Positions 1 to 44,485 of a stretch of 44,485 nucleotides of DNA are shown here, piece after piece. The DNA comes from an uncultured Planctomycetia bacterium. GTDB taxonomy: Bacteria > Omnitrophota > Gorgyraeia > 2-01-FULL-45-10. How positions within the stretch are numbered: the stretch's first letter is position 1; each line of letters opens with the position of its first letter. The stretch is taken from the NCBI GenBank assembly GCA_964352425.1, contig CAYGRZ010000006.1, positions 1 through 44,485 on the forward strand, read 5' to 3'. The notes below the pieces were generated by a model. The model ran no database searches, was not told the origin of the DNA, and worked only from the letters and a program-made list of their open reading frames with translations. A program made the position numbers and the translations under genes.

Positions 1-1625
1 CCGGCCCGATAGTGATAGGCCAGGCGTGCGAATTCGATTATTCCGGCTCGCAGGCCTGCAAGGTCCTTAAGGCAGAGGGGTACAAGGTAATACTCGTCAA
101 TTCCAACCCCGCCACGATCATGACCGACCCCGACATGGCCGACCGCACCTATATTGAACCGATCACCGTCGATGTCGCGGGAAAAATAATAGCCAGGGAG
201 AGGCCCGACGCGCTCCTGCCGACGCTCGGCGGACAGACGGCGCTCAATACCGCGGTAGGACTGGCGGAGGCGGGTATCCTCAAAAAATACAAAGTCGAGC
301 TTATAGGCGCGGACATTAAGGCCATCAAGAAGGCCGAAGACAGGCAGCTCTTCAAGGAAGCCATGCAGAAGATAGGCCTCAATCTTCCGAAGAGCGGCAG
401 GGCATACACGCTCAAAGAGGCGATCGCCGCGGCCGAGGGGATAGGGTTCCCGATCATCATCAGGCCGAGCTTCACGCTGGGCGGGACCGGCGGCAGTATC
501 GCCTACAATATGGAAGAGTTCAAGAAGCTCGCCAAGATCGGCATCGAGTCGAGCATGATACGCGAGGTCCTTATAGAGGAGTCGGTCGTAGGCTGGAAAG
601 AGTTCGAGCTGGAGGTGATGAGGGACAAGAAGGATAATGTCGTCATCATCTGCTCGATAGAGAATTTCGATCCGATGGGCGTGCACACCGGAGATTCCAT
701 AACCGTCGCGCCCGCCCAGACGCTGACCGACCGGGAATACCAGCTGATGCGTAATGCCGCGATAGCGTGCATACGCGAGATAGGGGTCGCGACGGGAGGC
801 TCGAACATACAGTTTGCCGTAAACCCCGACACGGGGAGGATGGTCGTCATAGAGATGAACCCGCGCGTCTCCAGAAGCTCGGCGCTCGCCTCGAAGGCGA
901 CGGGATTTCCGATCGCCAAGATCGCGGCCAAGCTTGCCGTGGGCTATACGCTCGACGAGATATCCAACGATATCACGAAAGAGACACCCGCGTGTTTCGA
1001 ACCGTCGATAGATTACTGCGTGGTGAAGATACCGCGATTCACGTTCGAGAAATTCCCCGGCTCCGACCCGACGCTCACCATCTCGATGAAGTCTGTCGGC
1101 GAGGCGATGTCGATCGGAAGGACATTCAAGGAGGCGCTGCAAAAAGGCCTGCGTTCACTCGAGATAAAGAAGAGCGGCCTCGAGAGCCTCCTCTTCAAGG
1201 ATTTCCTGGCCAATGTGAACGCGGACGAAGACACGGTGAGCACGATATACGAGAAGCTGAGGCTGCCAAACGCAGAGAGAGTATTCTATATCGGCGACGC
1301 CTTGCGCGCCGGCATCGGCGTCGATACAATATACGAGCTCACGAAGGTCGACCGGTGGTTCCTGCATAACATGCAGGAGATCATCGATCTTGAGCGCCAG
1401 ATCGCCCTGAAGAAGGGCGGTATCACCGTAAAGCTCCTCGCCCGCGCCAAAGAGATGGGTTTCAGCGACGCTCAGCTCGCGCACCTGACCGGCACGACCG
1501 AAGAGGATATGTGCACACTTCGGAAATCCCACAACATAACACCGGACTTCAAGCTCGTCGATACCTGCGCGGCCGAATTCCGCGCGTTCACGCCGTATTA
1601 TTACTCCACCTACGACCGGCCGTAG
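1..1625 (+). CDS. carB: Carbamoyl-phosphate synthase large subunit, N-terminal half only (carboxyphosphate + oligomerisation domains); 5' end lies outside the window
   Basis: Frame open from the window edge ([15 protein letters not shown]). Motifs [38 protein letters not shown]. Stops at YYYSTYDRP*, where the full-length copy at 37842 continues into its second half. Confidence 0.95.
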
Positions 1626-9593: not shown

Positions 9594-9655
9594 AGGAAAA
9601 AGGTAGCTAAATTTCTATTGACTTAACATGTTTATGTGTTAAGCTAATGGCACGT
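9594..9655 (+). promoter_or_regulatory. Conserved promoter cassette of large gene B
   Basis: TTTCTA-TTGACT (9618-9623), 16 nt, TGt-TAAGCT (9640-9645), 10 nt, ATG 9656. Confidence 0.7.
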
Positions 9656-15054: not shown

Positions 15055-16605
15055 ATGATTAAGCAGTCCGCACTACCGATCACGCGGGTCGGTTTCGATA
15101 ACGAAAAGTACCTGAAAGAGCAGACCGCCGCGATCGTCGATCGTGCCGATAAATTCGACTCAAAGCTCTACCTCGAGTTCGGCGGAAAGCTCTGCTTCGA
15201 CTACCACGCCGCGCGCGTCCTTCCGGGTTATGACCCCAACGTCAAGATACGCCTCCTGCAGCATCTGAAAGACAAGGTCGAGATCGTGCTGGCCATCTTC
15301 GCGGGCGACATCGAGAAGGGGAGGGTCCGCGGCGACTTCGGCATCACCTACGATGCGGCCACGTTCAAACTGATCGATGACCTCAGGAAGTGGGGCCTCG
15401 ACATATCATCGGTCGTGATAACCAGATTCGCGAACCAGCCGTCGGCGGTCATATTCAAGAACAAGCTCGAGCGCCGCGGCGTCAAGGTCTGCCTGCACTA
15501 TCCGATAGACGGCTACCCGACGAGTGTGGACCACGTGGTCAGCGACAACGGCTTCGGCAGGAACGGTTATATCGAGACGAAGAAACCGATCGTCGTCGTC
15601 ACCGCGCCCGGCCCGAACAGCGGCAAGCTCTCGGTCTGCCTTTCGCAGCTCTACCACGAGCATAAGCGCGGCATCAACGCCGGCTACGCGAAGTTTGAGA
15701 CGTTCCCGATATGGAACCTGCCGCTCAAGCATCCCGTCAATATCGCATACGAGGCAGCGACCGCGGACATCCTCGACTTCAACCTCGTTGACCCGTTCCA
15801 TCTGGCCAAGTACAACGAGACCTCGATAAATTACAACCGTGACGTCGAGTGCTTCCCGATACTAAAGCTCATCCTCACGCGGATACTCGACTCGAGGGCC
15901 GCCGGCCTGCCGGTCTATAATTCTCCGACGGATATGGGCGTCAACCGCGCGGGTTTCGGCATCGTCAATGACGAGGTGGTCTGTGCAGCGTCGAAACAGG
16001 AGTTCATCCGCAGGTACTTCCGCTATAACCAGGAATACGTCCTCGGTATCGAGAAGAAAGAGGCTGTCGATCGCGTCGCGATGCTGATGGAGGAAACGGG
16101 GGTCAAGGTCACCGACAGGGCAGTCGTCGCCGTCGCCAGGAAAGCGGCTGAAGACGCCGAGCGCAACGGAAAGGGGCATGCCGGGATCTTCTGCGGCGCG
16201 GCGCTGCAGCTGAAGGATGGCCTGACCATAACGGGGAAGAACTCGACATTGATGCACGCCGCTTCGAGCCTCATCCTGAACGCCCTCAAGACGCTGGCAA
16301 AATTACCCGACGAAATATTGCTGATATCTCCTCAGATCATCAACCAGATCAACACCCTGAAAGAGGACGTGCTCAAAGGCGAACCCGAAAGCCTCGACCT
16401 CGAAGAGGCGCTCATAGCGCTGTCCATAAGCGCCACCACGAACCATACGGCCGAGCTGGCTATGAAAAAGCTGATCGAACTGCGCGGCTGCGAGATGCAC
16501 ATGACCCACATACCGACGCCGGGGGATGAGGTAGGCCTGAAAATGATAGGCGTAAACCTCACCACCGATGGAAAATTCTCCTCCCACAATCTCTTCATAA
16601 CCTGA
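15055..16605 (+). CDS. DUF1846 / UPF0371 family protein
   Basis: GFDNEKYL, KLYLEFGGKL..DYHAARVLPG, TAPGPNSGK, GYAKFETFPIWNLPLKHPVNIAYEAATAD, SPTDMGVN. Confidence 0.9.
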   Translation: MIKQSALPITRVGFDNEKYLKEQTAAIVDRADKFDSKLYLEFGGKLCFDYHAARVLPGYDPNVKIRLLQHLKDKVEIVLAIFAGDIEKGRVRGDFGITYDAATFKLIDDLRKWGLDISSVVITRFANQPSAVIFKNKLERRGVKVCLHYPIDGYPTSVDHVVSDNGFGRNGYIETKKPIVVVTAPGPNSGKLSVCLSQLYHEHKRGINAGYAKFETFPIWNLPLKHPVNIAYEAATADILDFNLVDPFHLAKYNETSINYNRDVECFPILKLILTRILDSRAAGLPVYNSPTDMGVNRAGFGIVNDEVVCAASKQEFIRRYFRYNQEYVLGIEKKEAVDRVAMLMEETGVKVTDRAVVAVARKAAEDAERNGKGHAGIFCGAALQLKDGLTITGKNSTLMHAASSLILNALKTLAKLPDEILLISPQIINQINTLKEDVLKGEPESLDLEEALIALSISATTNHTAELAMKKLIELRGCEMHMTHIPTPGDEVGLKMIGVNLTTDGKFSSHNLFIT

Positions 16606-16648: not shown

Positions 16649-16720
16649 TGTTAGGTAATAAAAAAGCTACATATGTTTCTATTGACTTAACATGATGGTA
16701 TGGTATAATTGTACACATAT
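16649..16720 (+). promoter_or_regulatory. Conserved promoter cassette of giant gene C
   Basis: TTTCTA-TTGACT (16682-16687), 16 nt, TGg-TATAAT (16704-16709), 11 nt, ATG 16721. TTTCTATTGACTTAACATG is identical to the gene B promoter. Confidence 0.75.
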
Positions 16721-30346: not shown

Positions 30347-30362
30347 TATGAGTGGGTGCACT

Positions 30363-33300
30363 ATGATGAATCTGACACATATATCCCGGTTACGGCCCAT
30401 GAAGATCATATGCGCTATCATCATCTGCGCTATGATCCTTCCCGACGCTGCATGGTCGGGCGATGGCCATGGTGCACGCGGTTCCGGTCTTGCCGCATAC
30501 TCAGGCTTTCAGAAAGACCCGGTAAATCCGGAAGCGGCAAAATACAGGAAGCTGCTCTATTCAGCCGGCGGCCTCATAAATTCCGTCTGCTGCATAGGAG
30601 ACTATTTTTTCCGGGGGATAGAGGACGGCGCTGAGCCTGCGCGGCTGCTGCGCTACCTCGAGCCCGCGCTGACCGATCTGGGCGGCTCGCTGGAAGCCAT
30701 CGACGTGCCGAACGCGAGATTTGAAAACGGGGCGGTGATAGTGCCGTATGAAAACAGCGGCGAGCTCTATGATATCCATATATCATCAAGGAAAGATCCC
30801 GCAGCAGCCGGCCCCGAATGGACTGTCCTTTCGGATACCGGCAGACTGGGCAAATATGCTGTCAAGGTCATCCATAAAGGAAAGAAGGAAGCCGCGGCGT
30901 TCGTCCCGGCCGATATAGAGCCAAAGGATCCCGGCGCAGACCTCGAAGAAGGCCCGAACGCCGCTCTCATCCCGCAGATCGCGGGCATTCCGCATGACGC
31001 TGCCACAACAGTGGATCCGGCCCGCGCCAACGCCGATACGAACGTCCTTGTTATAGGCGCCGGGAAGATCGGAAGAGGCGTCGTGGGGCAGCTCTTGTCC
31101 GATTCCGGTTACAGGATCACCTTCGTGGATAAAGACGCCGACATTGTTAACGCGTTGCAGAGAAGCAATGCTTACACCATAAACATTTACTCACCTGACG
31201 GCAGGATCAATCAAAAAAGGATAAGCGGGATCGAGGCATTGCACAGGGCACGCGAGGGCGAAATAACGGACGCGATGCTGCGGGCGGACACGGTATTCAT
31301 GTCTGTCTTCGAGGCGGATTTTGATAATGTCGCATCGCTTATAGCACGAGGTATCGAAAAAAGGATCGCCGGTAATATCAAACGGCCAGTCAATGTCGTG
31401 GTCGTTTCCAATAAATTTTCCACTGAGTACATCGTCAGGGAGGCGATACTGCGGAATCTTCCGCCGCTCATCCGAAGAGAGGCGGACGGCCTGCTGGGAG
31501 TCATAGATACGGTGACGTTCAATATAGTCCCGAACGTCCCCGAAGCGGCCCGGAAAATTGACCCCGCATTGATACAGATCGGCAGCGACGCGGGCCTTTT
31601 GGCCGATACGACAAAGTTCAAAGGGCCGCCGATACACGTGGCCGGCATCGAGATGACAGACAACCTTGAGCAGGCGAAGCTGAGGAAGCTTTACACCTAC
31701 AATGGCGCCCATGCCATCTGCGCATACACGGGGTACCTGAAGGGATATGTATATATACAGGATGCTATCAAAGACCCTCTTATCTTAGATCTGGTAAAGG
31801 GATCCCTCGAAGAGATGCGCGGGCTGTTAGGGGCGTGGGACGATTACGATGAGTATATCAAAAAAGTCATTAAAGATTTTTCTGATGAGCACATCCGGGA
31901 TGACGTCTCAAGGGTCGGCCAGGACCCGGCCAGAAAGCTCTCGACGTTTGACCGCCTCGTGGGCCCCGCGAGGCTCGCCATGGCCAATAAAAGGATCCCG
32001 AGCGCATACGCGACCGGCATCGCCGCAGCGCTGCTCTACGATAATCCCGATGACACGCAGGCGCACTATATCCAAAACCGGATGGCCGCCGGGGATCCTG
32101 TAGATGCTGTCATATGCGGCATATGCGGCCTGCATCCGGAAAGCGACGCGCAGCTCATATCGTTGATCAGAGAGAAGATCGACGTCCTACGGAAAGAAAA
32201 AGCAAAAAAGCAGCTCAGGGACATCGCCGCCTCAGGAAGGCCCGATAAGACGGTAAAGGTGACGGGGAGGATACCGCACGATGTGAAGCTCGTGATGTGG
32301 GATTTCGATAACGTCATAGCGGACACCCCTAAATATTACGCGCACGCCACGGCGACAGTCTACTGGAGGATACGGAAAGGGGCGAAGAGAGGGGCCGGCG
32401 CGCCTGCTGACGACCCGATCTTCCAGGAAGGAAAGAAGCTGTATTACGGGTTCCTGCCGGGAAGGGCGACCTATCTGACGATAATGGAGGCAATAAAAAA
32501 AGCGAAAGAGGACGGCAGGCCGGATACAGAGCTTGAAAGCGCGGACGAATATTACCACGAGTTCGAATCTGAAAGAGAGAGGATATTCACTGACCTTACG
32601 CCCTCCGAATTCTTCAACCCCGGTATGAGGGAGCTTATATACACGGTGCGGGCTCTCAACCCCCGGGTTGAATTCTGCGTGAACACCGCCCTCGACCAGA
32701 ATTTTTTCCAACGGCAATTTATGAAACGCGGATTCAGGGGATATTTCAGCGCCGCGCGGGCCCTGACCGGGGAAGAGAGGGCCGGGGATACGATAAATAC
32801 CAATAAGGTGAAAAACGGCATGGCCCTGATCAGGGAACGCGGCCTCGACCCGTCTCAGGTGGTATTCATAGATGATTCATACAAGATCATGAAGATGGTC
32901 AAGGAACAGGTTCCCGGCGCTTTCACTATAGGAGTGTCGACCGATACGGCATCAGGCGAGAAGCTTATCGATGCGGGGGCCGATATCGTCATGACAAGCA
33001 TGAGGCCGACCCCCGACAAACTGATGATGTTCGGAATCAGGCAGGAGAGCACGGGTGATATAAAAAGCGCGGCCAAGGATGTCTATGTGATAAAGTCCGG
33101 AGGAGCCAACCGTCAAACGAAAATAGACCCTCTCTGGGAGGCGCGGTTCAGGAAAAATATCCCCTTCATCATCAAGACGCCCGAAGCAAGGCAAAAACTC
33201 GAAAAGCTCTTTGAGGCGCTGGTGCAGAAGGGGGACATCAGGCCGAATGTCGTCATCAATATTAAGAACTACAGCCCGAACGCCGTCTCCGTGTACATGG

Positions 33301-36300
33301 ATGCCCTGAGAGAGATATCCTCCCATTACAACGGAAACGTCACATTTGTCCTCGTGGTCGAGGAAGATATATATCACTTCAGTAATGACATGCCGAGCTC
33401 GTTCACCGCGCTTGCGAAAGCGAAGGAGGTGCTGGGGGACGATTTTTACAGGAATCCGACCGTCATGATAGCGGACGGAGGCAGGAAACTCAGGAACATG
33501 CCGCTGACGCTCGCATACCTGTACGAAGGGCTGATGCCGTATTCGCGCGACAGGTCCAGGCTCCATGAAATATTCGTGCGCTCCGGCGGCCTCATGCTGC
33601 AGATGCCGGATTTCGGAAGAAACGACTGCATCATCGTGGCCAGCGACAGCGTTTTCAATACAGAGAAGATATCAACGCTGCGCGCAGACTGGCCCCTTGC
33701 AGCCATCCCCCCGGTAAAGACGATGAGCGTCCCGGGCGTTCCCATACTTGGGGAGGAGATGAAAGGCAAGATCGTCTGCGGCGTAGACGGCGACAGGAAA
33801 GCGCTTTTCGTGCTGGCCAAGCCGACGCAGCGGGCCTCGTTCGACTATATGTCCAGGTACCCGCCTGCCAGCCTGTACGGCCTGCATTTCCTTACCATCT
33901 GGAATAAGGGGTTCCTTAACAGGTTCCTGCTGGAAATGAAAACATCGACGATGGAGGACGGCAGGCCGTTCCTCGAGATCCCCAGCGACATGTTCATGTC
34001 CCTGTTCCAGAGCACCTGCATGACCGCAGACGAATGGCTATCCTACAGGCCGCAGGACCAAACCGGCGGGGTTTCCGAGCCGGACTGGCTTACGATGAGG
34101 GAGATCGCGCTCAAATTCTTCGGCCCGAAGATCGCCAATGTCACGCTCCTACAGATGGCAGCGAACGCGGCCTTTACCGACGAAGGCATCCTCAGGAGGG
34201 CAATGCCGCGGTTCAAGCTACTCGTCAGGAAAGACCTCAACACCGTAAAGAAGAGCCCGGACGTCGTGCTCTGCAACGCGGCGGCGGCCAGCCTCGACAG
34301 GGTCGTCATAAAAGGCAGGGGCAGGATAGTATTCGGCAGGAACGTTCAGTTGTCGAATGTGGTCATCGAGATGGACGGCGAAGAGCTCTTCATACCCGAT
34401 TACTGGACTATCAGCAATTCCTATATACAGGGAAGCTGCTTTTTCAAGAATGAGAACGGCTATCTGATAAATGCCGCTCTCATCAGCAGCGGCCAAAGCC
34501 GGCTGCTGCCTCTACACGCGGAATTCACGGGCGAGAACGTCACCACCGTCGTATCAACCCTTGGGGGCCGGGAGGTGGTGGTGGGGATCCCTCTTGACGC
34601 AAAGCGGGCCGACCTTGAGGCTATGCGGTTCGGCGGCTACAGGCTCATGCACCTGCAGGAAGACGCCGATATCCTGGGGAACCTGCTGAGGACGGAGATG
34701 CTCGCCGAGAAGATTAATGATGAATTCGCGGCCATGCCCAATATATTCCCGCTTCATAAAGACGCTGTTGTCGAGGAGACGAGAAAAGAGGTCCGGTACG
34801 ATGAGCTGGTCGAGATGATTGCCTCAAGGATCATCAGCGAACATTCCGGGGATGACAGGCAATACTGGGTAACCCTCGAAGGCCTGCAGGGCTCAGGCAA
34901 GACTCACCTCATACACGCGCTGACAGAATCGCTCCGGTCGCGGGGAAAGAACGTCGTGGTCATGGAAGAGGACTGGTATCACCTGGACCGCGCCACACGG
35001 GAGGCGAGGAGAAGTATGTATGCCGGCCTCGGGGAGCGGCGGTGGATGGAACATTTCGAATTGTGGCATGACTGGAAAAGATTGCGCGGCGACCTGGAAA
35101 AGCTCCGCGGCGCCCGCGAAGGGACGCTGGTGCTTGACCGGCTTTACGACAGGGACGCGCACGGCGAGCTGACACGGCGCGTTGAACTTACTATGACAAA
35201 AGGCGCCGTCTGCATATACTCGGGTTTCTATGTTTCAGATAAAGGCAAGGCCGATATCCCCGCGGACCTGTCAATATACCTTGGGGTGAGCCCGGGCGAG
35301 TCCATGAAGACCAAGCTGGGGAGGGACCGCTGGCGGGCTCAGCATGACATAGCCGTTCTTGATAACAAGATTTACCGTCCTGCCCTTGCGCGATATATAC
35401 AGACGAACGATCCGGCTGCCCGGGCGGATATAGTGGTCAGTTTCGACGACATCGATAACCGCTCGCGCGTAAGCATAGTCACTCCGCTGACAAGGCAGGC
35501 CAACAGTCAGAAACCTGCCGCGCCTGAAGAGGTAAAAGCCGCGGCAAATCAATTACCGGAGACGCTGGGCGGCACCGTAACTGACACTCGGTCGAGGTTT
35601 ATCAAGGCCGTGAAGGGTCTTTCATACCTCCTGTTGCCGCCAAAGTGCATGGCCGTAATGAGGCTTCCCGGCCTTGACACGAGACGCGTTACCGCAGAGA
35701 TCATGCTGACCGCCAGGTCGGTACTGGAAGAATTATACGAGAAACGCGAATACGTAAACATCCATAGTACTGCACAAGAAGCCATGACATACCTCATTGA
35801 TAATTTCGATAGCCTGGAGGCCCAGAGCATAATCGGTGCCATCGTCACGCTTGCAGTGAGAGCCAAAAGAGAGAACCAGAAATTGATCATAGGGCTGGAA
35901 ACCGACTGGATACCCGGCATCGACGAAAAAGGATACGGCAGCCAGCACGACGCGATCAACGCCATAATGAAGCAGATCGACTCGTTGGGCGATACGCTGC
36001 GCTCTCTGGGCATAGACAATGTCGAAATAGTCCATGAACATATGGATGACGTCGCCGCGGCGGTGCTGGCGAAAGCTGAATCTACACATACCAGATTATC
36101 CAATGTCATACTGCTTGCGTCTTCCCGTACGGTCTTCAGTTTCAGGATATCTCTTCTTCAGAGAAACAGCAAGGAGATGCCGTTTTTTGCGGCAGTGGAC
36201 GCTTCCAAGCTCAAAGACTGGTATGATAAAAATAAAGGGTCGGGGAAACAGCTCGATATCAGGATACTTGAAATGCTCTCCATAGCCCTGGAACTTGCCG

Positions 36301-36452
36301 TGGGAAAGATGAGCCCGGATACTCTTACGATCGTGACAGAATACAACCGGGAGGAGCGGACGGTCATATTCGCGCCGGCAGCGGAACCGATCGACTATGA
36401 TGACCTGACACATGCGAATCACAGCCGCCTCATCGCCATGCAGTCAGCATAG
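30363..36452 (+). CDS. Large multidomain protein D (about 2030 aa): signal peptide, mannitol-1-phosphate 5-dehydrogenase-like, HAD phosphatase, sugar-nucleotidyltransferase-like + beta-helix, uridine-kinase-like P-loop, conserved C-domain
   Basis: IGAGKIGRG, RKLYTYNGAH, DDVSRVGQDP.RKL..DRLVGPA (31040-32190); WDFDNVIAD/FIDDS (32290-32880); DGGRKLRNMPLT (about 33470); LEGLQGSGKT/EEDWYH (34870-34985). Start uncertain among 30348, 30363, 30366 and 30399. Ends MQSA. Confidence 0.9.
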   Translation: MMNLTHISRLRPMKIICAIIICAMILPDAAWSGDGHGARGSGLAAYSGFQKDPVNPEAAKYRKLLYSAGGLINSVCCIGDYFFRGIEDGAEPARLLRYLEPALTDLGGSLEAIDVPNARFENGAVIVPYENSGELYDIHISSRKDPAAAGPEWTVLSDTGRLGKYAVKVIHKGKKEAAAFVPADIEPKDPGADLEEGPNAALIPQIAGIPHDAATTVDPARANADTNVLVIGAGKIGRGVVGQLLSDSGYRITFVDKDADIVNALQRSNAYTINIYSPDGRINQKRISGIEALHRAREGEITDAMLRADTVFMSVFEADFDNVASLIARGIEKRIAGNIKRPVNVVVVSNKFSTEYIVREAILRNLPPLIRREADGLLGVIDTVTFNIVPNVPEAARKIDPALIQIGSDAGLLADTTKFKGPPIHVAGIEMTDNLEQAKLRKLYTYNGAHAICAYTGYLKGYVYIQDAIKDPLILDLVKGSLEEMRGLLGAWDDYDEYIKKVIKDFSDEHIRDDVSRVGQDPARKLSTFDRLVGPARLAMANKRIPSAYATGIAAALLYDNPDDTQAHYIQNRMAAGDPVDAVICGICGLHPESDAQLISLIREKIDVLRKEKAKKQLRDIAASGRPDKTVKVTGRIPHDVKLVMWDFDNVIADTPKYYAHATATVYWRIRKGAKRGAGAPADDPIFQEGKKLYYGFLPGRATYLTIMEAIKKAKEDGRPDTELESADEYYHEFESERERIFTDLTPSEFFNPGMRELIYTVRALNPRVEFCVNTALDQNFFQRQFMKRGFRGYFSAARALTGEERAGDTINTNKVKNGMALIRERGLDPSQVVFIDDSYKIMKMVKEQVPGAFTIGVSTDTASGEKLIDAGADIVMTSMRPTPDKLMMFGIRQESTGDIKSAAKDVYVIKSGGANRQTKIDPLWEARFRKNIPFIIKTPEARQKLEKLFEALVQKGDIRPNVVINIKNYSPNAVSVYMDALREISSHYNGNVTFVLVVEEDIYHFSNDMPSSFTALAKAKEVLGDDFYRNPTVMIADGGRKLRNMPLTLAYLYEGLMPYSRDRSRLHEIFVRSGGLMLQMPDFGRNDCIIVASDSVFNTEKISTLRADWPLAAIPPVKTMSVPGVPILGEEMKGKIVCGVDGDRKALFVLAKPTQRASFDYMSRYPPASLYGLHFLTIWNKGFLNRFLLEMKTSTMEDGRPFLEIPSDMFMSLFQSTCMTADEWLSYRPQDQTGGVSEPDWLTMREIALKFFGPKIANVTLLQMAANAAFTDEGILRRAMPRFKLLVRKDLNTVKKSPDVVLCNAAAASLDRVVIKGRGRIVFGRNVQLSNVVIEMDGEELFIPDYWTISNSYIQGSCFFKNENGYLINAALISSGQSRLLPLHAEFTGENVTTVVSTLGGREVVVGIPLDAKRADLEAMRFGGYRLMHLQEDADILGNLLRTEMLAEKINDEFAAMPNIFPLHKDAVVEETRKEVRYDELVEMIASRIISEHSGDDRQYWVTLEGLQGSGKTHLIHALTESLRSRGKNVVVMEEDWYHLDRATREARRSMYAGLGERRWMEHFELWHDWKRLRGDLEKLRGAREGTLVLDRLYDRDAHGELTRRVELTMTKGAVCIYSGFYVSDKGKADIPADLSIYLGVSPGESMKTKLGRDRWRAQHDIAVLDNKIYRPALARYIQTNDPAARADIVVSFDDIDNRSRVSIVTPLTRQANSQKPAAPEEVKAAANQLPETLGGTVTDTRSRFIKAVKGLSYLLLPPKCMAVMRLPGLDTRRVTAEIMLTARSVLEELYEKREYVNIHSTAQEAMTYLIDNFDSLEAQSIIGAIVTLAVRAKRENQKLIIGLETDWIPGIDEKGYGSQHDAINAIMKQIDSLGDTLRSLGIDNVEIVHEHMDDVAAAVLAKAESTHTRLSNVILLASSRTVFSFRISLLQRNSKEMPFFAAVDASKLKDWYDKNKGSGKQLDIRILEMLSIALELAVGKMSPDTLTIVTEYNREERTVIFAPAAEPIDYDDLTHANHSRLIAMQSA

Positions 36453-36485: not shown

Positions 36486-36514
36486 TTGACACAATGACCC
36501 GGCTGTGTTAGAAT
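36486..36514 (+). promoter_or_regulatory. Sigma70 promoter of the carA-carB-pur cluster
   Basis: TTGACA (36486-36491), 17 nt, TGt-TAGAAT (36509-36514). Confidence 0.7.
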
Positions 36515-36657
36515 CTGCGCAATGAAGAAAGCCCACACCCTGTAACGAGAGTGTGAGATTATTATATGATAATACAGATGCTGGAAAAAAAGATTAATGT
36601 CGGTAGTAGAGAGGAGCGGACACAGAGCGAGTAATCTGCTTAATGGCTCCTTTTTGT

Positions 36658-36697
36658 AGCCAGAGGGACAGTCGTCCCTGCTGGCTTTTTTGTTTTT
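36658..36697 (+). terminator. Intrinsic terminator in the carA leader (candidate attenuator)
   Basis: AGCCAG-AGGGAC-agtc-GTCCCT-g-CTGGCT stem followed by a T-rich tract, ending about 25 nt before the carA ATG and downstream of the promoter. Confidence 0.75.
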
Positions 36698-36721
36698 AGG
36701 CACAATTTAACGGAGAAACTT

Positions 36722-37855
36722 ATGAAAGCAATGATCGTACTGGAAGACGGGGCCTCGTTCGAAGGCATTTCGATAGGCGTGCCGGGCGAGAAGATGGGTG
36801 AGGTCGTGCTCAATACCGCGGTCGTAGGATACCAGGAGATGATGACCGACCCGACCAACGCGGGCAAGATACTCGTCCTGACGTATCCGCTCATCGGCAA
36901 CTACGGTGTCGCGAAGAAGTTCAACGAATCGAGGAAATGCTGGATCGCGGGCCTCGTGATCAAGGAGGCCTCGAGGATATATTCGAACTGGCAGGCCGAA
37001 GGTTCGTTCCAGGACTTCCTGCAGGACGAGAAGGTGACGGCGATAAGCGACGTCGACACGAGGACCCTTGCGGTTGCCATACGCGATAACGGCGAGATGC
37101 TCGGCATCATCTCAACGACCGACCTGAAAAAAGAGTCGCTCATCAAGAAACTGAGAGAGCATAAAGCCGCGAAGAAGGATCTCATCAGGGAGATATCGGT
37201 AAAGCACGCGGCGCACACGAAAGTCGGCTCGGGCCCGAATATAGCGGTGCTCGACCTCGGGTTCCTTCACAGCTTCGCCCACCAACTCAAAACTCTCGGC
37301 TGCAATGTAACGCTCCTGCCGTACGACACAGGCGCACGCGACATCCTGGCCGGCCATCCCGACGGCCTCATCATCTCGAACGGACCGGAAGACGACGCGA
37401 GCCTGCCCAAGGTCGCCTCTACCGTGCGCGAGCTCCTCGGCAAGGTACCGATGATGGGTATCGCGACAGGCCATCAGGTGATCGGCATAGCCCTCGGCGC
37501 CAGGCTCACGAAAATGAAGATAGGCCACCACGGCGTTAACTACCCGGTGCGAGCCACCGATTCGTTCAAGGGCGATATCACCGTCCAGAACCATTCGTAC
37601 GTCATAGACGAGAGCACGATCAAGAACAGTAAGAACGTTGCCGTGACGCTGCGGAACGTAAACGACCACACCATCGAGGCGATGGAATCCAAAACCCTCA
37701 AACTCATATCGGTCCAATACAATCCGGCCAGCCCGGGCTTCGATGAGATCAATGAGGCGTTCCGTAGATTCCTTGCCATGGCCGGCGGCGGCAAAGGCAT
37801 TAAACTGAAGAAGAACCCCAAGCAATCGAGTGAGGCGGCCTATGCCAAAGCGTAA
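36722..37855 (+). CDS. carA: Carbamoyl-phosphate synthase small subunit homolog with substituted glutaminase triad
   Basis: [47 protein letters not shown] replaces GICLGHQ and QYNPA replaces Q(Y/F)HPE. GGAG RBS. Confidence 0.92.
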
Positions 37856-40800
37856 AGACATCCATAGGATACTGATGATAGGTTCCGGCCCGATAATAAT
37901 AGGCCAGGCGTGCGAATTTGACTACTCCGGCTCGCAGGCATGCAAGGCGCTGAGAGAGGAAGGCTATTATACGATCCTCGTCAACTCCAACCCGGCGACG
38001 ATCATGACCGACCCGAACATGGCCGACGTGACGTATATCGAGCCCCTGACGGTCGAGGCGGTCACCGAGATAATAAAGAAAGAGAAGCCGGACGCCATCC
38101 TGCCGACACTGGGAGGGCAGACGGGCCTGAACCTGGCCTACTTCCTCATGAAGGAAGGCGTCCTCAAGAAATACGGCGTCGAGTCGATCGGCGCGAACGT
38201 CCAGGCAATCTCGCGGGCCGAAGACAGGGATCTCTTCAAGAAGGCGATGATCGAGATAGGCATCGACGTGCCGAAGAGCGGCATCGCGCGCACGGCCGAA
38301 GAGGGGATGAAGATAGGCCTTTCGATCGGATTTCCGCTCATCCTGCGGCCGGCATACACGCTCGGCGGCTCCGGCGGTTCCATCGCGTACAATAAAGAAG
38401 AGCTCGAGGTATTCCTCGGTAAAGGGCTCGAGATAAGCCCGGTCCACCAGATCTTAGTCGAGCAGTCGGTCCTCGGATGGAAAGAGATAGAGTTCGAGGT
38501 CATGCGCGACTGCGTCGACAATGTCATCATGATAACCTCAATGGAAAATGTCGACCCGATGGGCGTCCATACCGGCGACTCCATCGTCGTCGCGCCTTCA
38601 CAGACGCTGACGGCCGAGGAGTACGTGCGGTTCGTGAACCTCTCCAAGAAGATCATCCGCAAGATCGGCATCACAGGCGGCGGCGCGAACATCCAGTTCG
38701 CCCAGAACCCCGATAACGGCCACATCGTCATCATCGAGGTGAATCCGAGGCTCTCGAGAAGCTCGGCGCTCGCCTCGAAGGCGACCGGCTTCCCGATCGC
38801 ACGGGTCGCGACAAAGCTCGCGATAGGGCTCACGCTTCCGGAGGTATTGAACCAGGTCACGGGCAAGACGACCGCGTTCTTCGAGCCGACGGTCGACTAC
38901 TGCGTATTCAAGATCTGCCGCTTCACGTTCGAGAAGTTCCCCGGAACGGCGCGCGTCCTCAACACGTCGATGAAGGCGGTGGGCGAGGCCATGTCGATCG
39001 GCAGGAACTTCCGCGAGGCGCTGCAGAAGGGCATACGCTCGACCGAGACCAGGCGCTTCGGCCTCGGCTCTGACGGCCGCGACAGGGTTACCGACGCGAT
39101 GCTGAAGACCGCATCGGGCGACCTCATCGCCGAGATCAAGGAGAAGATCCGCATCCCCAGCGACGACCGTTTCTTCTATATCCGTTATGCGATCAAGCTC
39201 GGCATGACCAATGAGGAGATATACGAGATATCAAAAATCGACAGGTGGTTTATCGACAATATGCGCCAGATCGTGGAAACCGAAGAAGAGCTGAAGAAAT
39301 ACAGGAACAATGAACAAGCCGACGATATCAGGCTGCCGGCGAACCTGCTGCTCAAAGCGAAGAAGTACGGGTTCTCGGACGTCCAGATCGCGTTCCTTAT
39401 CAATTCAACGGAGAATAACGTGAGAGACGAAAGAAAGAAGAAAAATATTAAGGCCGCATACAAGGTGGTGGATACCTGCGGCGGCGAGTTCAGGGCCGAG
39501 CGGCCCTACTACTATTCCACCTATGAGACCAAATGCGAGAGCGCGCCCTCGTCCAATAAGAAGAAGGTCCTCATCCTCGGCGGCGGCCCGAACAGGATAG
39601 GGCAGGGCATCGAGTTCGACTACTGCTGCTGCCACGCCTCATACGCGCTGCGCGAAGACGGCTACGAGTCGATCATGATCAACTGCAATCCCGAGACGGT
39701 CTCGACCGACTACGATACCTCCGATAAGCTCTACTTCGAGCCTCTCACGGTCGAAGACGTGATGAATATCGTCGATATCGAGAAACCGATCGGCGCGATC
39801 GTGCAGTTCGGCGGCCAGACGCCGCTCAATATCTCGGGCGCGCTCCATAAGCTCGGCCTGCCGATACTCGGCACGAGCCCCGAATCGATCGATATCGCCG
39901 AGGATAGGAAGCTCTTTCAGCAGATGATAAAGAAGCTCAAGCTCATCCAGCCGGATAACGGCACCGCGACATCGTACGATGAGGCAAAAGCAGTCGCCTC
40001 GCGGATAAGCTATCCGGTGGTGGTACGGCCCTCGTTCGTCCTGGGCGGACGCGCGATGGAGATAGTCTACGACGAGAAGAGCCTGGCAGATTATATGGAG
40101 AAGGCGGTCGAGGCATCGCCGGAGCGGCCGATATTGGTCGACAAATTCCTCGAGGACGCTATAGAAGTCGACGTCGACGCGATAGCCGACGGACAGACGT
40201 GCGTGATCGGCGGAATCATGGAGCACATCGAAGAGGCGGGCATACATTCGGGTGACAGCGCGATGGTCCTTCCGCCGCACACGCTCGCTAAGGATATCCT
40301 CGAGACGATACGCAAGAACACCTACGCGATGGCGATGGAGCTCAAGGTCAAGGGCCTCATGAACGTCCAGTTCGCGGTGAAGAACAATATCGTCTACGTC
40401 CTCGAGGTCAACCCGCGGGCGTCCAGGACGGTGCCGTTCGTCTCGAAGGCGATCGGCGTGCCGCTGGCGAAACTTGCGACAAAGGTCATGCTCGGCAAGA
40501 CCCTGAAAGAGCTGGGCTTTACGAAGGAGAAAAAATGCAGCGCCGTCGCCGTCAAGGAGTCGGTCTTCCCGTTCATCCGTTTCCCGGGCACCGACGCGAT
40601 CCTCGGGCCCGAGATGAAATCGACGGGCGAGGTCATGGGGATAGACTCGACGTTCGGCATGGCGTACGCGAAGAGCCAGATAGCGGCAGGCCAGAAATTG
40701 CCGACAAAGGGCACCGTCTTTATCAGTGTGAAGAACCAGGACAAGCGCAACATCATATTCGTGGCAAAAAAGCTCGCGGACATGGGCTTCAAGATCATGG

Positions 40801-41114
40801 CGACCGCCGGCACTGCCGACGCGCTCAAATCGAACGACATCGATGTCCAGGCGCTGCCGAAGCTCACTGAGGGAAGGCCGAACATCATCGACCTCATAAA
40901 GGACGGCAAAGTGAGCCTGATCATCAATACGCCGGCGGGCAAGGCGACAAAAGAGGACGAGATGAAGATACGCTCGAACGCGATCCTCTATAACGTGCCG
41001 CTGATCACGACCGTTTCCGGCGCGCAGGCTTCGGTAAACGGCATCGAGAACCTGAAGAAGCATCCGAAGATGTCGGTCAAGTCGCTGCAGGAGTACAATA
41101 AGGCGGTTAAATAA
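37842..41114 (+). CDS. carB: Carbamoyl-phosphate synthase large subunit, full length
   Basis: MPKRKDI start; two ATP-grasp halves (GVHTGDS, GIHSGDS, EVNPR twice); C-terminal MGS domain; overlaps the carA 3' end. Confidence 0.97.
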
Positions 41115-41191: not shown

Positions 41192-41213
41192 ATAACAAAT
41201 CTCATTGTTAGCT

Positions 41214-42620
41214 ATGAAAGAATATTGCGGAGTCGTCGGAATATACGGCCATAAGAACGCCGCGCAGCTTGCGTGCCTGGCGCTGTACGCGCTGCAGCAC
41301 CGTGGCGAAGAGTCGACCGGCATCGTCAGCTTCGATAAGAAGAAGATATATCAGCACAAGGGCATGGGCCTGGTCGGCGACGTATTCAAGCCCGAGAGCC
41401 TGAAGAAGCTCAAAGGCTCGCTGGCCGTCGGACACGTCCGTTATTCCACCACCGGTTCGAGCACAGCCAAGAACGTCCAGCCGCTCCTCATCAGCCACAA
41501 GAAGGGGTTCATCGCCGTCGCCCATAACGGCAACCTCACGAACTCCGTGAGCTTACGCAACGAGCTCGAGGACTCAGGTTCCATCCTCCAGACGACGATG
41601 GATTCGGAGCTCATCCTGCATTATCTCGTCAAAGACCACCAGAATAATTACTCGGGCAAGCTCCTGCCTATCATGAGCCGCCTTGAAGGCGCGTTCTCAT
41701 TCGTCCTCATGATCAATGACGGCATATACGGCATGCGCGACCCGCACGGCTTCCGGCCGCTCTGCATAGGAAAGCTTGAAGGCGCGTATATCCTTGCGAG
41801 CGAGACCTGCGCCCTCGACATGATCCAGGCCGCCTACGTCAGGGATGTTGAGCCGGGCGAGATCGTCGTCATCGACAAGAACGGCCTGCGGTCGCTGAAA
41901 CAGCCTGAGGTCAAGAAACACGCGTTCTGCATATTCGAATATATATACTTCGCGCGGCCCGATTCCAACGTATTCACCCAGAGCGTGTACCTGTCGCGGA
42001 AGAACCTCGGCAGAACGCTGGCGAAAGAGCATCCGGTAGACGCCGATCTCGTCATGCCGGTCCCTGACTCGGGCACCTATGCCGCGATGGGGTACGCCGA
42101 GGAGTCGAAGATACCGCTCGAGATGGCGTTCGTCAGGAACCATTACATCGGCAGGACATTTATCCAGCCGAGCCAACTCATCAGGGACTTCAAGGTCAAG
42201 GTGAAACTGAATCCCGTCCGCGACCTCCTTAAAGGTAAGCGCGTCGTCGTGGTCGAGGACTCTATCGTGCGCGGCACCACGTCGAAGGGCAGGGTCAGGA
42301 CCCTCAGGGCCGCGGGGGCAAGCCAGATACACATGAGGGTCAGCTGCCCGCCGCTCATATCACCGTGCTTCTACGGCATCGACTTCCCGACCAGGAAAGA
42401 GCTGATAGCGTCCAGCCATACGGTGGAGGAGATCCGCCAGTTCATAGGCGTCGACAGCTTAAAATACATGAGCCTCGAAGGGCTGCTGGGCTCGATGCTG
42501 CTCCCTAAAGAGGAATTCTGCACGGCGTGCTTCACCGGGGACTACCCCACGCAAATCTGCAAGCCGCTTTCAAAAAAGATGCTCGAGCGCAAAGCTTGCC
42601 CGGGCGTAAAGAAGGTGTGA
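41214..42620 (+). CDS. purF: Amidophosphoribosyltransferase (Fe-S type, short propeptide)
   Basis: [60 protein letters not shown]. Confidence 0.97.
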
Positions 42621-42621
42621 C

Positions 42622-44166
42622 ATGTCACGGGAAAAAGTACTGATAATCGATTTCGGTTCGCAATATAACCAGCTGATCGCCCGCAAAGTGCGCGAGCTGA
42701 ACGTCTTCTGCGAAATAGTCACACCCGACGTGCCGATACATTCCATACACCCGGGCGAGATCAAGGGCATAATATTCTCAGGTGGGCCGGCGAGCGTATA
42801 TTCCGCGAAGGCGCCCCACTGCGACGCCAGGATATTCTCTCTCGGCATTCCGATCCTGGGCATCTGCTACGGCATGCAGCTGATGGCGAAAATGCTGGGC
42901 GGCAACGTCGAAAGGGCACCCCACAGGGAATACGGCCGCTCTCCGCTGACCGTAACCAGCCACAGGCTGCTCTTCAAGGATGTGCCGAAGACGAGCGTCT
43001 CATGGATGAGCCACGGCGACAAAGTGAAGAAAATGCCGAAGGGCTTCACGCGCATCGGCCGCAGCGGCAACGCCTCCATAGCGGCATTCGCGGATTTCGA
43101 ACGGAAGTTCTTCGGCGTCCAGTTCCACCCCGAAGTGGCGCACACGCACCACGGCACGACGATCCTGAAGAACTTCGTCAAGGACATCTGCCGCTGCCGC
43201 GGCGACTGGTCGATGAGATCGTTCATACACGAAACAATAAGCGACATACGCAAGGCCGTCGGAGGCCATGACAAGGTCATCCTGGGCCTCTCCGGCGGCG
43301 TCGATTCGTCTGTGGCCGCAGTCCTGATCCATAAGGCCATCGGCCACAGGCTCGCCTGCATATTTGTCGATAACGGGTTACTGCGGAAGAACGAGGCGCG
43401 GCTGGTAAGGGAAGTATTCCAGAAACACTTCAAGATCAACCTGCGCTGCATCGACGCATCGGATGAGTTTATCGCGGCCCTCCGGGGTGTTACCGACCCG
43501 GAGAGGAAGCGCAAGATAATAGGCCGCACGTTCATTAAAGTCTTCGACCGGGAAGCTAAAAGAACGGGCGGCGTGAAGTTCCTGGCGCAGGGCACGCTCT
43601 ATCCGGACCTGATCGAATCGCGCTCCGCGTTCGGCGGCCCCAGCGCGACTATCAAGACCCATCACAACGTAGGCGGATTGCCCAAGAAGATGAACCTGAA
43701 GCTTATCGAGCCGCTCAAATACCTCTTCAAGGATGAGGTCAGGAGGGTGGGCAGAGAGCTCAAGATCCCCCAGGAGGTGCTGGGACGCCATCCGTTCCCG
43801 GGGCCGGGGCTCGCCGTCAGGATAATCGGCGACATCACGAAAGAGCGCTGCGACATCCTGCGCGAGGTCGACGACCGGTTCATCTCGATACTCAGGAAAG
43901 AGAACCAGTACGACAAGATATGGCAGGCGTTCGCGGTGCTCCTGCCGATAAAGTCCGTGGGAGTGATGGGCGACGAGCGGACGTATGAGTCGGTCGTCGC
44001 GATCCGCGCCGTGACGTCTGTCGACGGGATGACGGCCGATTGGGCGAAGATCCCGTATGACATACTGGGAAAGATATCGAACAGGATAATCAATGAGGTC
44101 AGGGGCGTCAACCGAGTCGCGTATGATATAAGCTCGAAACCGCCCTCGACGATAGAGTGGGAGTAG
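42622..44166 (+). CDS. guaA: GMP synthase (glutamine-hydrolysing)
   Basis: [48 protein letters not shown]. Confidence 0.98.
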
Positions 44167-44485
44167 ATGATCTGGCGAGTTGAAGTAGCAGAGAAAAAAG
44201 GTTACTACGACGCCGTCGGCGCGAGCGTCAAGCGTGACATCCACGACCTGGGCCTCCACGGCAAGGTGAAGGACGTCAAGACCGTGCAGGTATACCTCCT
44301 GGAAGGCGACGTGCCGGAACACGACGTAAAGAGGATCTGCGAGAACCTCCTGATCGACCCCGTCACGCAGGATCATAACTATCGCGGCGGCGTCCTCGAT
44401 GAGAAAGGCTGCAAAGTCGTCGAGGTCGCCTACAACCCCGGCGTGATGGACCCGGTCGAGGAGAGCGCGAAGAAGGCGATCGTCG
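44167..44485 (+). CDS. purL: Phosphoribosylformylglycinamidine synthase subunit with N-terminal tandem PurS-like domains (partial; runs off the window; absent from the ORF track)
   Basis: Manual translation from ATG 44167: MIWRVEV...DAVGASVKRDIHDLG...ICENLLIDPVTQ...VEVAYNPGVMDPVEESAKKAI. This is one PurS-like unit followed by the start of a second. The PurL core is inferred, not seen. Confidence 0.75.
   Translation, partial: MIWRVEVAEKKGYYDAVGASVKRDIHDLGLHGKVKDVKTVQVYLLEGDVPEHDVKRICENLLIDPVTQDHNYRGGVLDEKGCKVVEVAYNPGVMDPVEESAKKAIV

What the first reader, a model, noticed from the sequence alone, without database searches (positions are those of the whole stretch)
36722..37855. carA has lost the entire Cys-His-Glu glutaminase triad
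Seen: GIATGHQ (Ala at 37463-37465), SVQYNPAS (Asn 37721-37723, Ala 37727-37729) and SNGPEDD. Established: CarA has GICLGHQ, Q(Y/F)HPE and SNGPGDP, and guaA in this window keeps GICYG and HPE. The ORF is otherwise intact and coupled to full-length carB. Inference: an ammonia-dependent CPS with a structural pseudo-glutaminase subunit, analogous to vertebrate CPS1, or a regulatory subunit.
Basis: partly seen in the sequence, partly recalled or inferred. Interest (0 to 1): 0.75.

Follow-up and report, generated by a model that had tools for sequence, protein, structure and literature searches.

The report
Bacterial CPS with dead glutaminase subunit
Besides a normal glutamine-splitting CarA just upstream of the window, this Omnitrophota genome keeps a second, conserved CarA copy that has lost its catalytic residues and is coupled to a full-length carbamoyl-phosphate synthetase, which therefore most likely uses free ammonia, as the human urea-cycle enzyme does.

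Summary
The 377-aa ORF at 36722-37855 is a full CarA homologue. It has Ala for the nucleophile Cys269 and Asn for His353, and the Glu355 position is missing. It is not a decayed gene. All 120 closest database homologues and all 27 copies fetched from related Omnitrophota genomes lack Cys and His. The fold is predicted with confidence, and dN is as low as in the canonical carA.

It is a paralogue ("CarA*"). An intact carA, followed by an N-terminal half carB, lies directly upstream of window position 1; the two contigs overlap by 55 nt.

The full-length CarB coupled to CarA* is a mosaic. Its N half forms a distinct clade with fixed changes in the ammonia tunnel. Its C half is the positional orthologue of the stand-alone C-half gene of close relatives.

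In five checked genomes CarA*-CarB is the only recognisable carbamoyl-phosphate source, while two carbamoyltransferase genes are present.

Best reading: an ammonia-dependent CPS with a non-catalytic small subunit, convergent with vertebrate CPS I. It coexists here with a glutamine-dependent CarA + half-CarB module. No biochemistry exists. I found no paper describing it, but this scan has noted the same lineage in at least nine other genomes.

The parts
36722..37855 (+). carA* : triad-less CarA paralogue (pseudo-glutaminase small subunit), 377 aa
   Evidence: ORF. Pfam PF00988 + PF00117. TIGR01368 366 bits. Alignment to E. coli CarA. Triad table. AF2 model pLDDT 90.3, TM 0.88 to 1jdb_F.
37842..39554 (+). 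N* half of the full-length carB (carboxyphosphate/carbamate-forming ATP-grasp plus oligomerisation domain). Start is ATG 37842 with GAGG 7 nt upstream, or GTG 37830; it overlaps the carA* stop.
   Evidence: N* forms its own clade (24 rows, SH-aLRT 100). Fixed tunnel changes C232T, I234M, T249V, R265V.
39555..41114 (+). C half of the same carB (carbamate-phosphorylating ATP-grasp plus MGS-like allosteric domain). It is the positional orthologue of the stand-alone carB C-half gene of relatives.
   Evidence: 88% and 84% identity to the stand-alone C halves of G014 and G021. Interleaved in the tree. AU test. Same position upstream of purF.
3..1625 (+). carB N-half-only gene. The canonical type stops at the N/C domain boundary. 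Its first 17 codons and the intact canonical carA lie on contig C12, which overlaps window bases 1-55.
36486..36514 (+). Promoter-like site (TTGACA-17-TAGAAT with TG, 11 of 12) upstream of carA*
   Evidence: Conserved in the same-genus genome G001.
36659..36697 (+). Conserved leader hairpin (GCCAGAGGGAC...GTCCCTGCTGGC) followed by a T-run, 25 nt before the carA* start. Either a terminator or an attenuator-like element.
   Evidence: No Rfam match.
36712..36715 (+). GGAG Shine-Dalgarno-like element, 6 nt before ATG 36722
   Evidence: Read from the sequence.
41205..44484 (+). purF, guaA and purS (3' open), same strand, directly downstream: a nucleotide-biosynthesis gene string continuing from carA*-carB
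   Evidence: The order carA*-carB-purF-guaA is conserved in G001, G005, G011, G016 and G023.
15055..16605 (+). DUF1846 gene, the conserved neighbour that lies between carB-N and carA* in relatives

Best explanation
carA* encodes a folded but catalytically dead small subunit. It still docks on the N-terminal half of the co-translated full-length CarB. Together they form a complete carbamoyl-phosphate synthetase that cannot draw nitrogen from glutamine and takes up free ammonia instead. This is an independent bacterial parallel to vertebrate CPS I. In this genome it coexists with a second, glutamine-dependent front end: an intact CarA plus an N-half-only CarB encoded directly upstream of the window.

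Shown here: loss of the triad, conservation, the fold, gene coupling, the mosaic make-up of the CarB, and that the pair is the only CPS in some genomes.

Inferred: that the subunits bind, that ammonia is the substrate, and by which path ammonia enters.
For: (1) The triad is lost clade-wide while the gene is kept.
- 120 of 120 best hits lack Cys and His. The nucleophile position reads S80/A27/G9/V2/Q1/T1. The His position reads Y78/N20/D8/C5/S4/I4/V1.
- 27 of 27 copies from 27 genomes lack both.
- These positions vary freely, whereas 68 other columns are near-invariant: 38 in the CarB-contacting N domain and 29 in the GATase domain.

(2) Purifying selection. Between G000 and G001, dN is 0.165 for carA*, 0.143 for canonical carA and 0.126 for purF, with synonymous sites saturated.

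(3) The fold is kept. The AF2 model has pLDDT 90.3, TM 0.88 to E. coli CarA and TM 0.83 to the CPS1 N-terminal moiety.

(4) Coupling. The carB start overlaps the carA* stop. The CarB keeps E215, H243, Q285, E299, N301 and R303 and matches E. coli CarB over its whole length.

(5) It is the sole CPS elsewhere.
- G125, G103, G269, G042 and G367 (90-96% complete) each have one PF00988 hit, the triad-less type.
- Each has one full-length CarB and no half CarB.
- For G125, G103, G269 and G042, two OTCace_N carbamoyltransferase genes are present and no carbamate kinase scores over the cut-off. G367 was not in those two searches.
- By my reading, 39 of 401 sampled genomes of the phylum carry the type, and 12 of those show no second CarA.

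(6) Co-varying tunnel changes.
- CarA*: Gly293 becomes V/L/M/I in 26 of 27. Pro360 is P in 0 of 27. Position 295 is Y in 27 of 27.
- N*: C232T (a gate residue), I234M, T249V and R265V in 24 of 24, against 17 of 17 canonical.
- In human CPS1, Gln318 at the Gly293 position blocks the old tunnel and an alternative ammonia path is proposed. Its Ser294-Thr295 matches the commonest Ser-Thr of this clade (passages; counts).

(7) Glutaminase-free CP synthesis is otherwise plausible in this family. G018 (99% complete) has a full CarB and no CarA at all. Passages of PMC8121099 propose the same for B. thetaiotaomicron CarB2.
Against: There is no biochemical, expression or structural datum for any member.

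In this genome an active CarA is present, so glutamine could still feed CP synthesis, and the CarA*-CarB pair need not work alone here.

The 'sole CPS' genomes are metagenome bins, 90-96% complete. One of four sampled genomes of genus g57 (G372) does show a second, canonical-type hit.

The tunnel argument rests on alignment to E. coli numbering, not on a computed tunnel. One gate residue differs from both E. coli and CPS1 (C232T), and variants altering the gate impaired both the glutamine- and the ammonia-dependent activity of the E. coli enzyme (passage).

The invariant new acidic residues (E243 in 120 of 120, D245 in 118 of 120) hint at a retained ligand site, which a purely structural subunit would not need.
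Confidence: 0.6

Rival explanations
1. Shared back end. In genomes like this one, the single C half is fused to N*. It also serves the canonical CarA + CarB-N module, in a mixed complex or by domain exchange. Glutamine would then remain the physiological nitrogen source, and CarA*/N* would be mainly a scaffold or an alternative input.
For: G000 and G001 have a conserved canonical carA + N-half carB but no stand-alone C half. The N-half module is under strong constraint (dN 0.100). Close relatives G014 and G021 run carA + N half + stand-alone C half, and that C half is the positional orthologue of the fused one at 84-88% identity. So N and this C lineage can work in trans. Every N-half genome I checked that lacks carA* has a stand-alone C half: G002, G014, G019, G020, G021, G024, G029, G033. 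Aquifex assembles GLN + CPS.A + CPS.B from separate chains (passage).
Against: The C half is covalently tied to an N* that keeps all its catalytic residues. There is no internal start codon at the N*/C boundary that could yield a free C half. Star-only genomes show that CarA*-CarB does not need the canonical module. CarA + N half could instead be self-sufficient as a homodimer, as reported for half-size CPSs (passage).
Confidence: 0.2
2. CarA* is a regulatory subunit. The remodelled former glutamine pocket binds a small ligand and tunes CarB allosterically, whatever the nitrogen source.
For: E243 (120 of 120) and D245 (118 of 120) are fixed in the old oxyanion/glutamine loop, N311 is kept in 120 of 120, and position 273 is mostly E (94 of 120). 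29 near-invariant columns remain in the GATase domain.
Against: The nucleophile and His positions drift freely, as expected for an abandoned pocket. Most conserved GATase columns are shared with canonical CarA (56 of 68 near-invariant columns carry the canonical residue), and they include loops that line the tunnel and the interface. No ligand is suggested by any search.
Confidence: 0.1
3. CarA* is still a hydrolase that uses another nucleophile, Ser in most members.
For: Ser occupies the nucleophile position in 80 of 120 homologues.
Against: This window's protein has Ala there. Others have Gly or Val. The His is absent in 120 of 120 and the Glu column is deleted. Human CPS1 with the same Cys-to-Ser change cannot use glutamine (passage).
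Confidence: 0.03
4. A decaying pseudogene or an assembly/sequencing artefact.
For: None found.
Against: The ORF is intact in 27 genomes. dN is low against saturated dS. The fold prediction is confident. The Shine-Dalgarno element and the overlap with carB are conserved.
Confidence: 0.01

Closest known systems
Vertebrate mitochondrial CPS I (human CPS1, PDB 5DOT/5DOU)
   Same: It has an ancestral glutaminase module that is kept but is catalytically dead. The commonest residues at the Cys-Leu positions are Ser-Thr, as in CPS1 Ser294-Thr295. A bulky residue replaces E. coli small-subunit Gly293, which in CPS1 (Gln318) blocks the old tunnel. Free ammonia is the presumed substrate. The model matches the CPS1 N-terminal moiety at TM 0.83.
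   Different: Here there are two polypeptides, not one fused chain. The His is also lost and the Glu is deleted. Gate residue C232 is changed to Thr, whereas CPS1 keeps the Cys-Ala-Ala gate. Nothing indicates N-acetylglutamate dependence. The origin is independent and bacterial.
E. coli CarAB (glutamine-dependent CPS, PDB 1JDB, 1BXR, 1C30)
   Same: Same domain architecture in both subunits, same gene order and the same overlapping start. CarA* hits CarA at E 1e-60, and CarB scores 1266 bits over its full length. The fold matches at TM 0.88.
   Different: No Cys-His-Glu triad. There are changes at G243, L270, G293, G313 and P360 of the small subunit and at C232, I234, T249 and R265 of the large subunit.
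Aquifex aeolicus split CPS (GLN + CPS.A + CPS.B)
   Same: The canonical module of this genome (carA + N-half carB) and the three-gene form in relatives G014, G021, G029 and G033 match this split architecture (passage).
   Different: In this genome the C half is not a free subunit. It is fused behind a second, divergent N half that brings its own dead small subunit.
Bacteroides thetaiotaomicron CarB2 (orphan CarB proposed to be ammonium-dependent; PMC8121099)
   Same: A bacterial CPS proposed to use ammonium directly, coexisting with a canonical glutamine-dependent system (passages). Orphan full-length CarBs also occur in this family: G018, G019 and G024.
   Different: CarB2 has no small subunit at all. 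Here a dead small subunit is retained and conserved.
Half-size CPS of Methanobrevibacter smithii
   Same: It is a precedent that a single synthetase half can act as a homodimer (passage). This is relevant to what CarA + CarB-N may do here.
   Different: That enzyme is archaeal and has no glutaminase subunit. It was not tested here.

Membership tests
CarA, glutamine-hydrolysing CPS small subunit (TIGR01368; PF00988 + PF00117) | N-terminal CPSase small-chain domain that contacts CarB | tested here: met
   PF00988 hits residues 5-130, 153 bits, full profile. 38 near-invariant columns in the clade.
CarA, glutamine-hydrolysing CPS small subunit (TIGR01368; PF00988 + PF00117) | Class I glutamine amidotransferase fold in the C-terminal domain | tested here: met
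   PF00117 118 bits. AF2 pLDDT 90.3 and TM 0.88 to 1jdb_F.
CarA, glutamine-hydrolysing CPS small subunit (TIGR01368; PF00988 + PF00117) | Cys269-His353-Glu355 catalytic triad | tested here: not met
   Ala, Asn and a deletion in this protein. Cys and His are absent in 120 of 120 homologues.
CarA, glutamine-hydrolysing CPS small subunit (TIGR01368; PF00988 + PF00117) | Glutamine-site and oxyanion residues G241, G243, L270, Q273, N311, G313, F314 (list recalled from the E. coli structural literature) | tested here: not met
   G241 and N311 are kept. G243 is E in 120 of 120. L270 is T in 82 of 120. G313 is S in 112 of 120.
CarA, glutamine-hydrolysing CPS small subunit (TIGR01368; PF00988 + PF00117) | Encoded next to and upstream of carB | tested here: met
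   14-nt overlap with the carB ATG. Same arrangement in all 25 fetched CarA* loci that extend into carB.
CarA, glutamine-hydrolysing CPS small subunit (TIGR01368; PF00988 + PF00117) | Glutaminase activity coupled to CP synthesis | not testable with these tools
   Needs an enzyme assay.
CPS I-type (ammonia-dependent CPS with an inactive glutaminase module) | Glutaminase module retained but lacking the catalytic Cys | tested here: met
   CPS1 reference passage.
CPS I-type (ammonia-dependent CPS with an inactive glutaminase module) | Ancestral ammonia tunnel obstructed at the position of E. coli small-subunit Gly293 | tested here: inconclusive
   V/L/M/I in 26 of 27 against G/A in 32 of 34 canonical. 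No tunnel was computed on a structure.
CPS I-type (ammonia-dependent CPS with an inactive glutaminase module) | Single fused polypeptide | tested here: not met
   Two ORFs with a stop between them.
CPS I-type (ammonia-dependent CPS with an inactive glutaminase module) | Obligatory activation by N-acetylglutamate | not testable with these tools
   Needs an enzyme assay.
CPS I-type (ammonia-dependent CPS with an inactive glutaminase module) | Uses NH3 and not glutamine | not testable with these tools
   Inferred only, from the sole-CPS genomes.
Split CPS (Aquifex type: separate GLN, N-half and C-half genes) | carB N half encoded as its own gene ending at the domain boundary | tested here: met
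   Window 3-1625 stops after ...YYYSTYDRP. About 555-aa orthologues occur in 20 relatives.
Split CPS (Aquifex type: separate GLN, N-half and C-half genes) | Separate C-half gene | tested here: not met
   None in G000 or G001. The only C half is fused to N*.

The most novel reading that the evidence does not exclude
A modular CPS with two interchangeable nitrogen front ends on one back end. In genomes of this type, the single carbamate-phosphorylating/allosteric C half is fed by either of two modules. One is an ammonia-taking CarA*/N* module fused to it in cis. The other is a glutamine-splitting CarA/CarB-N module acting in trans. The cell could then switch nitrogen source without duplicating the whole enzyme.

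The carA*-N* cassette behaves as a plug-in. It has been gained or lost precisely at the N/C domain boundary several times, behind a conserved leader that survives the loss.
Probability: 0.2. Interest if true: 0.8.

Novelty: new variant of a known kind. Interest (0 to 1): 0.6.

Why it matters
Passages of a 2021 paper (PMC8121099) state that all eubacterial CPSs studied so far were glutamine-dependent. Databases name this protein 'glutamine-hydrolyzing'.

A conserved bacterial lineage with a dead small subunit would be an independent replay of the CPS II to CPS I transition. It could show what a dead glutaminase module is kept for: assembly, ammonia entry or regulation. It would also change nitrogen-budget predictions for Omnitrophota, since CP synthesis would depend on ammonium.

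Within one family, relatives carry the canonical, split, star-plus-split, star-only and orphan-CarB forms. That offers a natural series for dissecting how the CPS halves and subunits recognise each other.

Tried and rejected
- Internal translation start for a free C half inside the star carB: no ATG, GTG or TTG at the N*/C boundary. Rejected.
- Known RNA family in the carA* leader: only a chance-level CRISPR-repeat match at E 6.3.
- The long leader motifs were found only in G000 and G001 by pattern search. The hairpin alone is wider.
I did not lay them. The clade-wide conservation answers the sequencing-error question instead.
- Fan et al. 2009 (PMC2748306) is not held. The gate residues were taken from passages of PMC8674909 and PMC4655335.
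- Literature searches for a described bacterial pseudo-CarA gave nothing relevant in listings or abstracts. Supplements were not examined.
- dN/dS as a ratio: synonymous sites are saturated (pS 0.70-0.78), so only dN is informative.
- No complex-prediction job was sent. CarA-CarB and N-C pairs would pass by likeness to solved E. coli structures and could not separate the rival readings.
- In the AU test the row filter accidentally included five canonical N-half rows, which acted as an outgroup. The tested group was also named after the tree had been seen.

Full report
**What is at the coordinates.** The ORF at 36722-37855 (+) encodes 377 residues. Pfam gives a complete CPSase small-chain domain plus a class I GATase domain. 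NCBIfam's CarA equivalog model scores above its cut-off, 366 against 307 bits. HMMER aligns the protein end to end with E. coli CarA at E 1e-60.

In that alignment GIATGHQ lies on E. coli GIC(269)LGHQ, and QYNP-ASPG lies on QGH(353)PE(355)ASPG. The nucleophile is therefore Ala, the His is Asn, and the Glu column is missing. SNGPEDD replaces SNGPGDP. guaA in the same window keeps its Cys and His-Pro-Glu.

GGAG sits 6 nt before the ATG. The carB ATG at 37842 has GAGG upstream and overlaps the carA* stop by 14 nt.

**It is a conserved family, not decay.**
- A search of the 5.8-billion-protein collection returned 3,549 hits. In an alignment of the 120 best (59-100% identity, mostly named Omnitrophota/Omnitrophica where named), none has Cys or His at the triad positions. 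Glu replaces Gly243 in all 120.
- I fetched 27 copies from 27 genomes of the phylum. All 27 lack Cys and His and show the one-column deletion at Glu355.
- The canonical CarA rows from the same set keep the triad. Of 46 rows (34 distinct), 45 show Cys and all 46 show His and Glu. The one exception is a truncated ORF.
- The former triad positions drift (S/A/G/V and Y/N/D/C/I...). Meanwhile 68 columns stay near-invariant: 38 in the N domain and 29 in the GATase domain.
- Against the same-genus genome G001, dN is 0.165 for carA*, 0.143 for canonical carA and 0.126 for purF, with synonymous sites saturated.
- An AlphaFold model built on 48 sequences has mean pLDDT 90.3. It superposes on E. coli CarA at TM 0.88 and on the N-terminal moiety of human CPS1 at TM 0.83.

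**The genome also has a normal carA.** A family search of the assembly (1.68 Mb, 72 contigs, 99.6% complete) finds a second CarA on contig C12. It carries GICLGHQ, QFHPE and SNGPGDP. The reverse complement of the first 55 bases of C12 is identical to the first 55 bases of the window. This intact carA is therefore directly upstream of position 1, and its stop overlaps the start of the carB-like gene at window 3-1625.

That gene is only the N-terminal half of CarB. It stops after YYYSTYDRP, at the domain boundary. Searches for the ATP-grasp and MGS domains find no separate C half in G000.

**Architecture types in relatives.** Among 40 relatives and then 400 genomes sampled across the phylum I see five forms:
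1. Canonical carA plus full carB (for example G027, G032).
2. carA + N half + separate C half (G002, G014, G019, G020, G021, G024, G029, G033).
3. The form seen here: carA + N half, plus carA* + full carB, with no free C half (G000, G001; by locus content also G005, G011, G016, G022, G023, G038, G158).
4. carA* + full carB only.
5. A full carB with no carA at all (G018), or such an orphan as an extra copy (G019, G024).

G026 carries both a complete canonical pair and a carA*-carB pair.

By my reading of the table, 39 of 401 genomes have a CarA*-type best hit. Of these, 23 were verified by sequence, and 16 were classed by 49-62% identity only. 27 of the 39 have a second hit and 12 have none.

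**The coupled CarB is a mosaic.**
- Its N half is 57% identical to the genome's own stand-alone N half, whereas stand-alone N halves are 78-84% identical among genera.
- Its C half is 88% and 84% identical to the stand-alone C halves of G014 and G021.
- In a joint tree of 78 half sequences, the 24 N halves that follow a CarA* form one clade (SH-aLRT 100, stem 0.40). This clade is apart from the canonical N halves, whether free or fused.
- The C halves interleave by taxon regardless of what they are fused to.
- Forcing the 24 CarA*-associated C halves into one clade costs 248 log-likelihood units (AU p 2e-36). The group was named after seeing the tree.
- Synteny agrees. G005, G011, G023 and G158 read carA - carB-N - (Dus) - DUF1846 - carA* - carB - purF - guaA. 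G021 and G014 read carA - carB-N - ... - carB-C - purF.
- The hairpin that precedes carA* in six genomes also precedes the free C-half gene of G014.

So the carA*-N* cassette is present or absent exactly in front of one resident C half. I cannot tell insertion from deletion. In a FastTree of 208 CarA sequences, the CarA* clade sits inside a larger group made only of triad-less sequences, far from the Omnitrophota canonical CarAs. Deep support there is weak and long-branch attraction is possible.

**Function.** In G125, G103, G269 (one genus), G042 and G367 the only CarA-family gene is the triad-less type, and the only CPS-type large subunit is the adjacent full-length CarB. For G125, G103, G269 and G042 I also found two carbamoyltransferase genes each and no carbamate kinase over the cut-off (best 33 bits against 358). 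G367 was not included in those last two searches. In these genomes the CarA*-CarB pair must supply carbamoyl phosphate without a glutaminase.

The CarB keeps the residues aligned with E. coli E215, H243, Q285, E299, N301 and R303.

Fixed differences cluster on the ammonia path:
- Large subunit: C232T, I234M, T249V, M264F, R265V and A267L, in 24 of 24 N* against 17 of 17 canonical. A251 and A314 are unchanged in this protein.
- Small subunit: Gly293 becomes V/L/M/I in 26 of 27. Pro360 is lost in 27 of 27. Tyr is at position 295 in 27 of 27.

A314-A251-C232 is the gate of the E. coli tunnel (passage). In human CPS1, Gln318 at the Gly293 position blocks the old tunnel, and an alternative entry for external ammonia is proposed (passages). 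From memory only, and not checked here: alanine changes at small-subunit P360/H361 and large-subunit R265 were used to perforate the E. coli tunnel. That is a lead for where ammonia might enter, not evidence.

**What remains open here.** This genome keeps a constrained CarA + N-half module without a C half of its own. Either that module is self-sufficient, as half-size CPSs can be (passage), or it uses the C half that is fused to N*. The evolutionary switches between forms 2 and 3 show that this N lineage and this C lineage do work together in trans in close relatives. No internal start codon would release a free C half.

**Comparison and novelty.** The closest functional analogue is vertebrate CPS I. 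The closest relatives by sequence are ordinary CarAB. B. thetaiotaomicron CarB2 is the published bacterial case for ammonium-dependent CP synthesis, but it has no small subunit (passages). My six literature searches found no description of a bacterial triad-less CarA.

Triad loss is not confined to this clade. Of the 150 best 50%-identity cluster representatives, 80 keep Cys-His-Glu, 62 lack the Cys, 6 keep Cys but lack His, and 2 are fragments. This list is ranked by likeness to a triad-less query, so it is enriched for such sequences.

This scan had already noted the same phenomenon in at least nine other genomes. Its lead about a matching altered tunnel in the large subunit was tested here and holds at the sequence level.

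**Verdict.** This is a new variant of a known kind.

Noticed in passing
window 36486-36721: The carA* leader is far better conserved between G000 and G001 (80% identity) than synonymous sites are (pS about 0.74). It holds a near-consensus promoter and a stable fold (z -2.9). It ends in a hairpin plus T-run just before the Shine-Dalgarno element. The hairpin recurs upstream of carA* in G005, G011, G016 and G022, and upstream of the free C-half gene in G014 (13 pairs, 4 with compensatory changes). There is no Rfam match. It is a possible attenuator or unknown riboswitch for the carA*-carB-purF-guaA string.
   Followed up: partly
window 15055-16605, and loci L043, L044, L045, L046, L047, L051, L058, L060, L080: A DUF1846 gene (PF08903/PF20921, function unknown) is a constant neighbour. 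It lies between carB-N and carA*, or directly upstream of carA*, in G005, G011, G016, G022, G023, G026, G038 and G158, and upstream of the C half in G021. It may be functionally linked to CP or nucleotide synthesis.
   Followed up: no
window 16709-30346, 30261-36452, 9647-13615, 5639-9490: Four very large ORFs on the + strand separate carB-N from carA* here; relatives have only 1.6-5 kb in between.
- 4545 aa: ILEI, metallophosphoesterase, GH2-TIM and TPR hits.
- 2063 aa: mannitol-dehydrogenase domains at the N terminus.
- 1322 aa: a weak CheR hit.
- 1283 aa: no Pfam hit.

   Followed up: no
G018:C23 (L057), G019:C31 (L056), G024:C9: Full-length 'orphan' CarBs form a third, separate clade in both halves (SH-aLRT 99) and have no CarA next to them. 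G018 (99% complete) has no CarA-family hit at all. This resembles B. thetaiotaomicron CarB2.
   Followed up: partly
proteins P0123-P0269 (50%-identity cluster representatives): 62 of the 150 best representatives lack the CarA nucleophile Cys, most with Gly. They scatter over the tree in several groups, some next to triad-bearing sequences, which suggests repeated independent losses. Their taxa could not be looked up.
   Followed up: partly
window 1737-3404 and L042 2385-4148: A GH3-family (acyl-acid amido synthetase-like) gene follows carB-N in G000 and in G001 (64% identity). This is unusual for a bacterial CPS neighbourhood.
   Followed up: no
G026:C2 (L047): One genome carries both a complete canonical carA-carB and a carA*-carB, in the order carA*-carB-DUF1846-carA-carB-purF. 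The C half of its canonical copy groups with a genome of another class (G044). This suggests a separately acquired copy.
   Followed up: no
window 1-55 and G000:C12 1-55: The assembly breaks inside the carB N half although the two contig ends overlap exactly by 55 nt. This is probably a graph break caused by the two similar carB 5' regions.
   Followed up: yes
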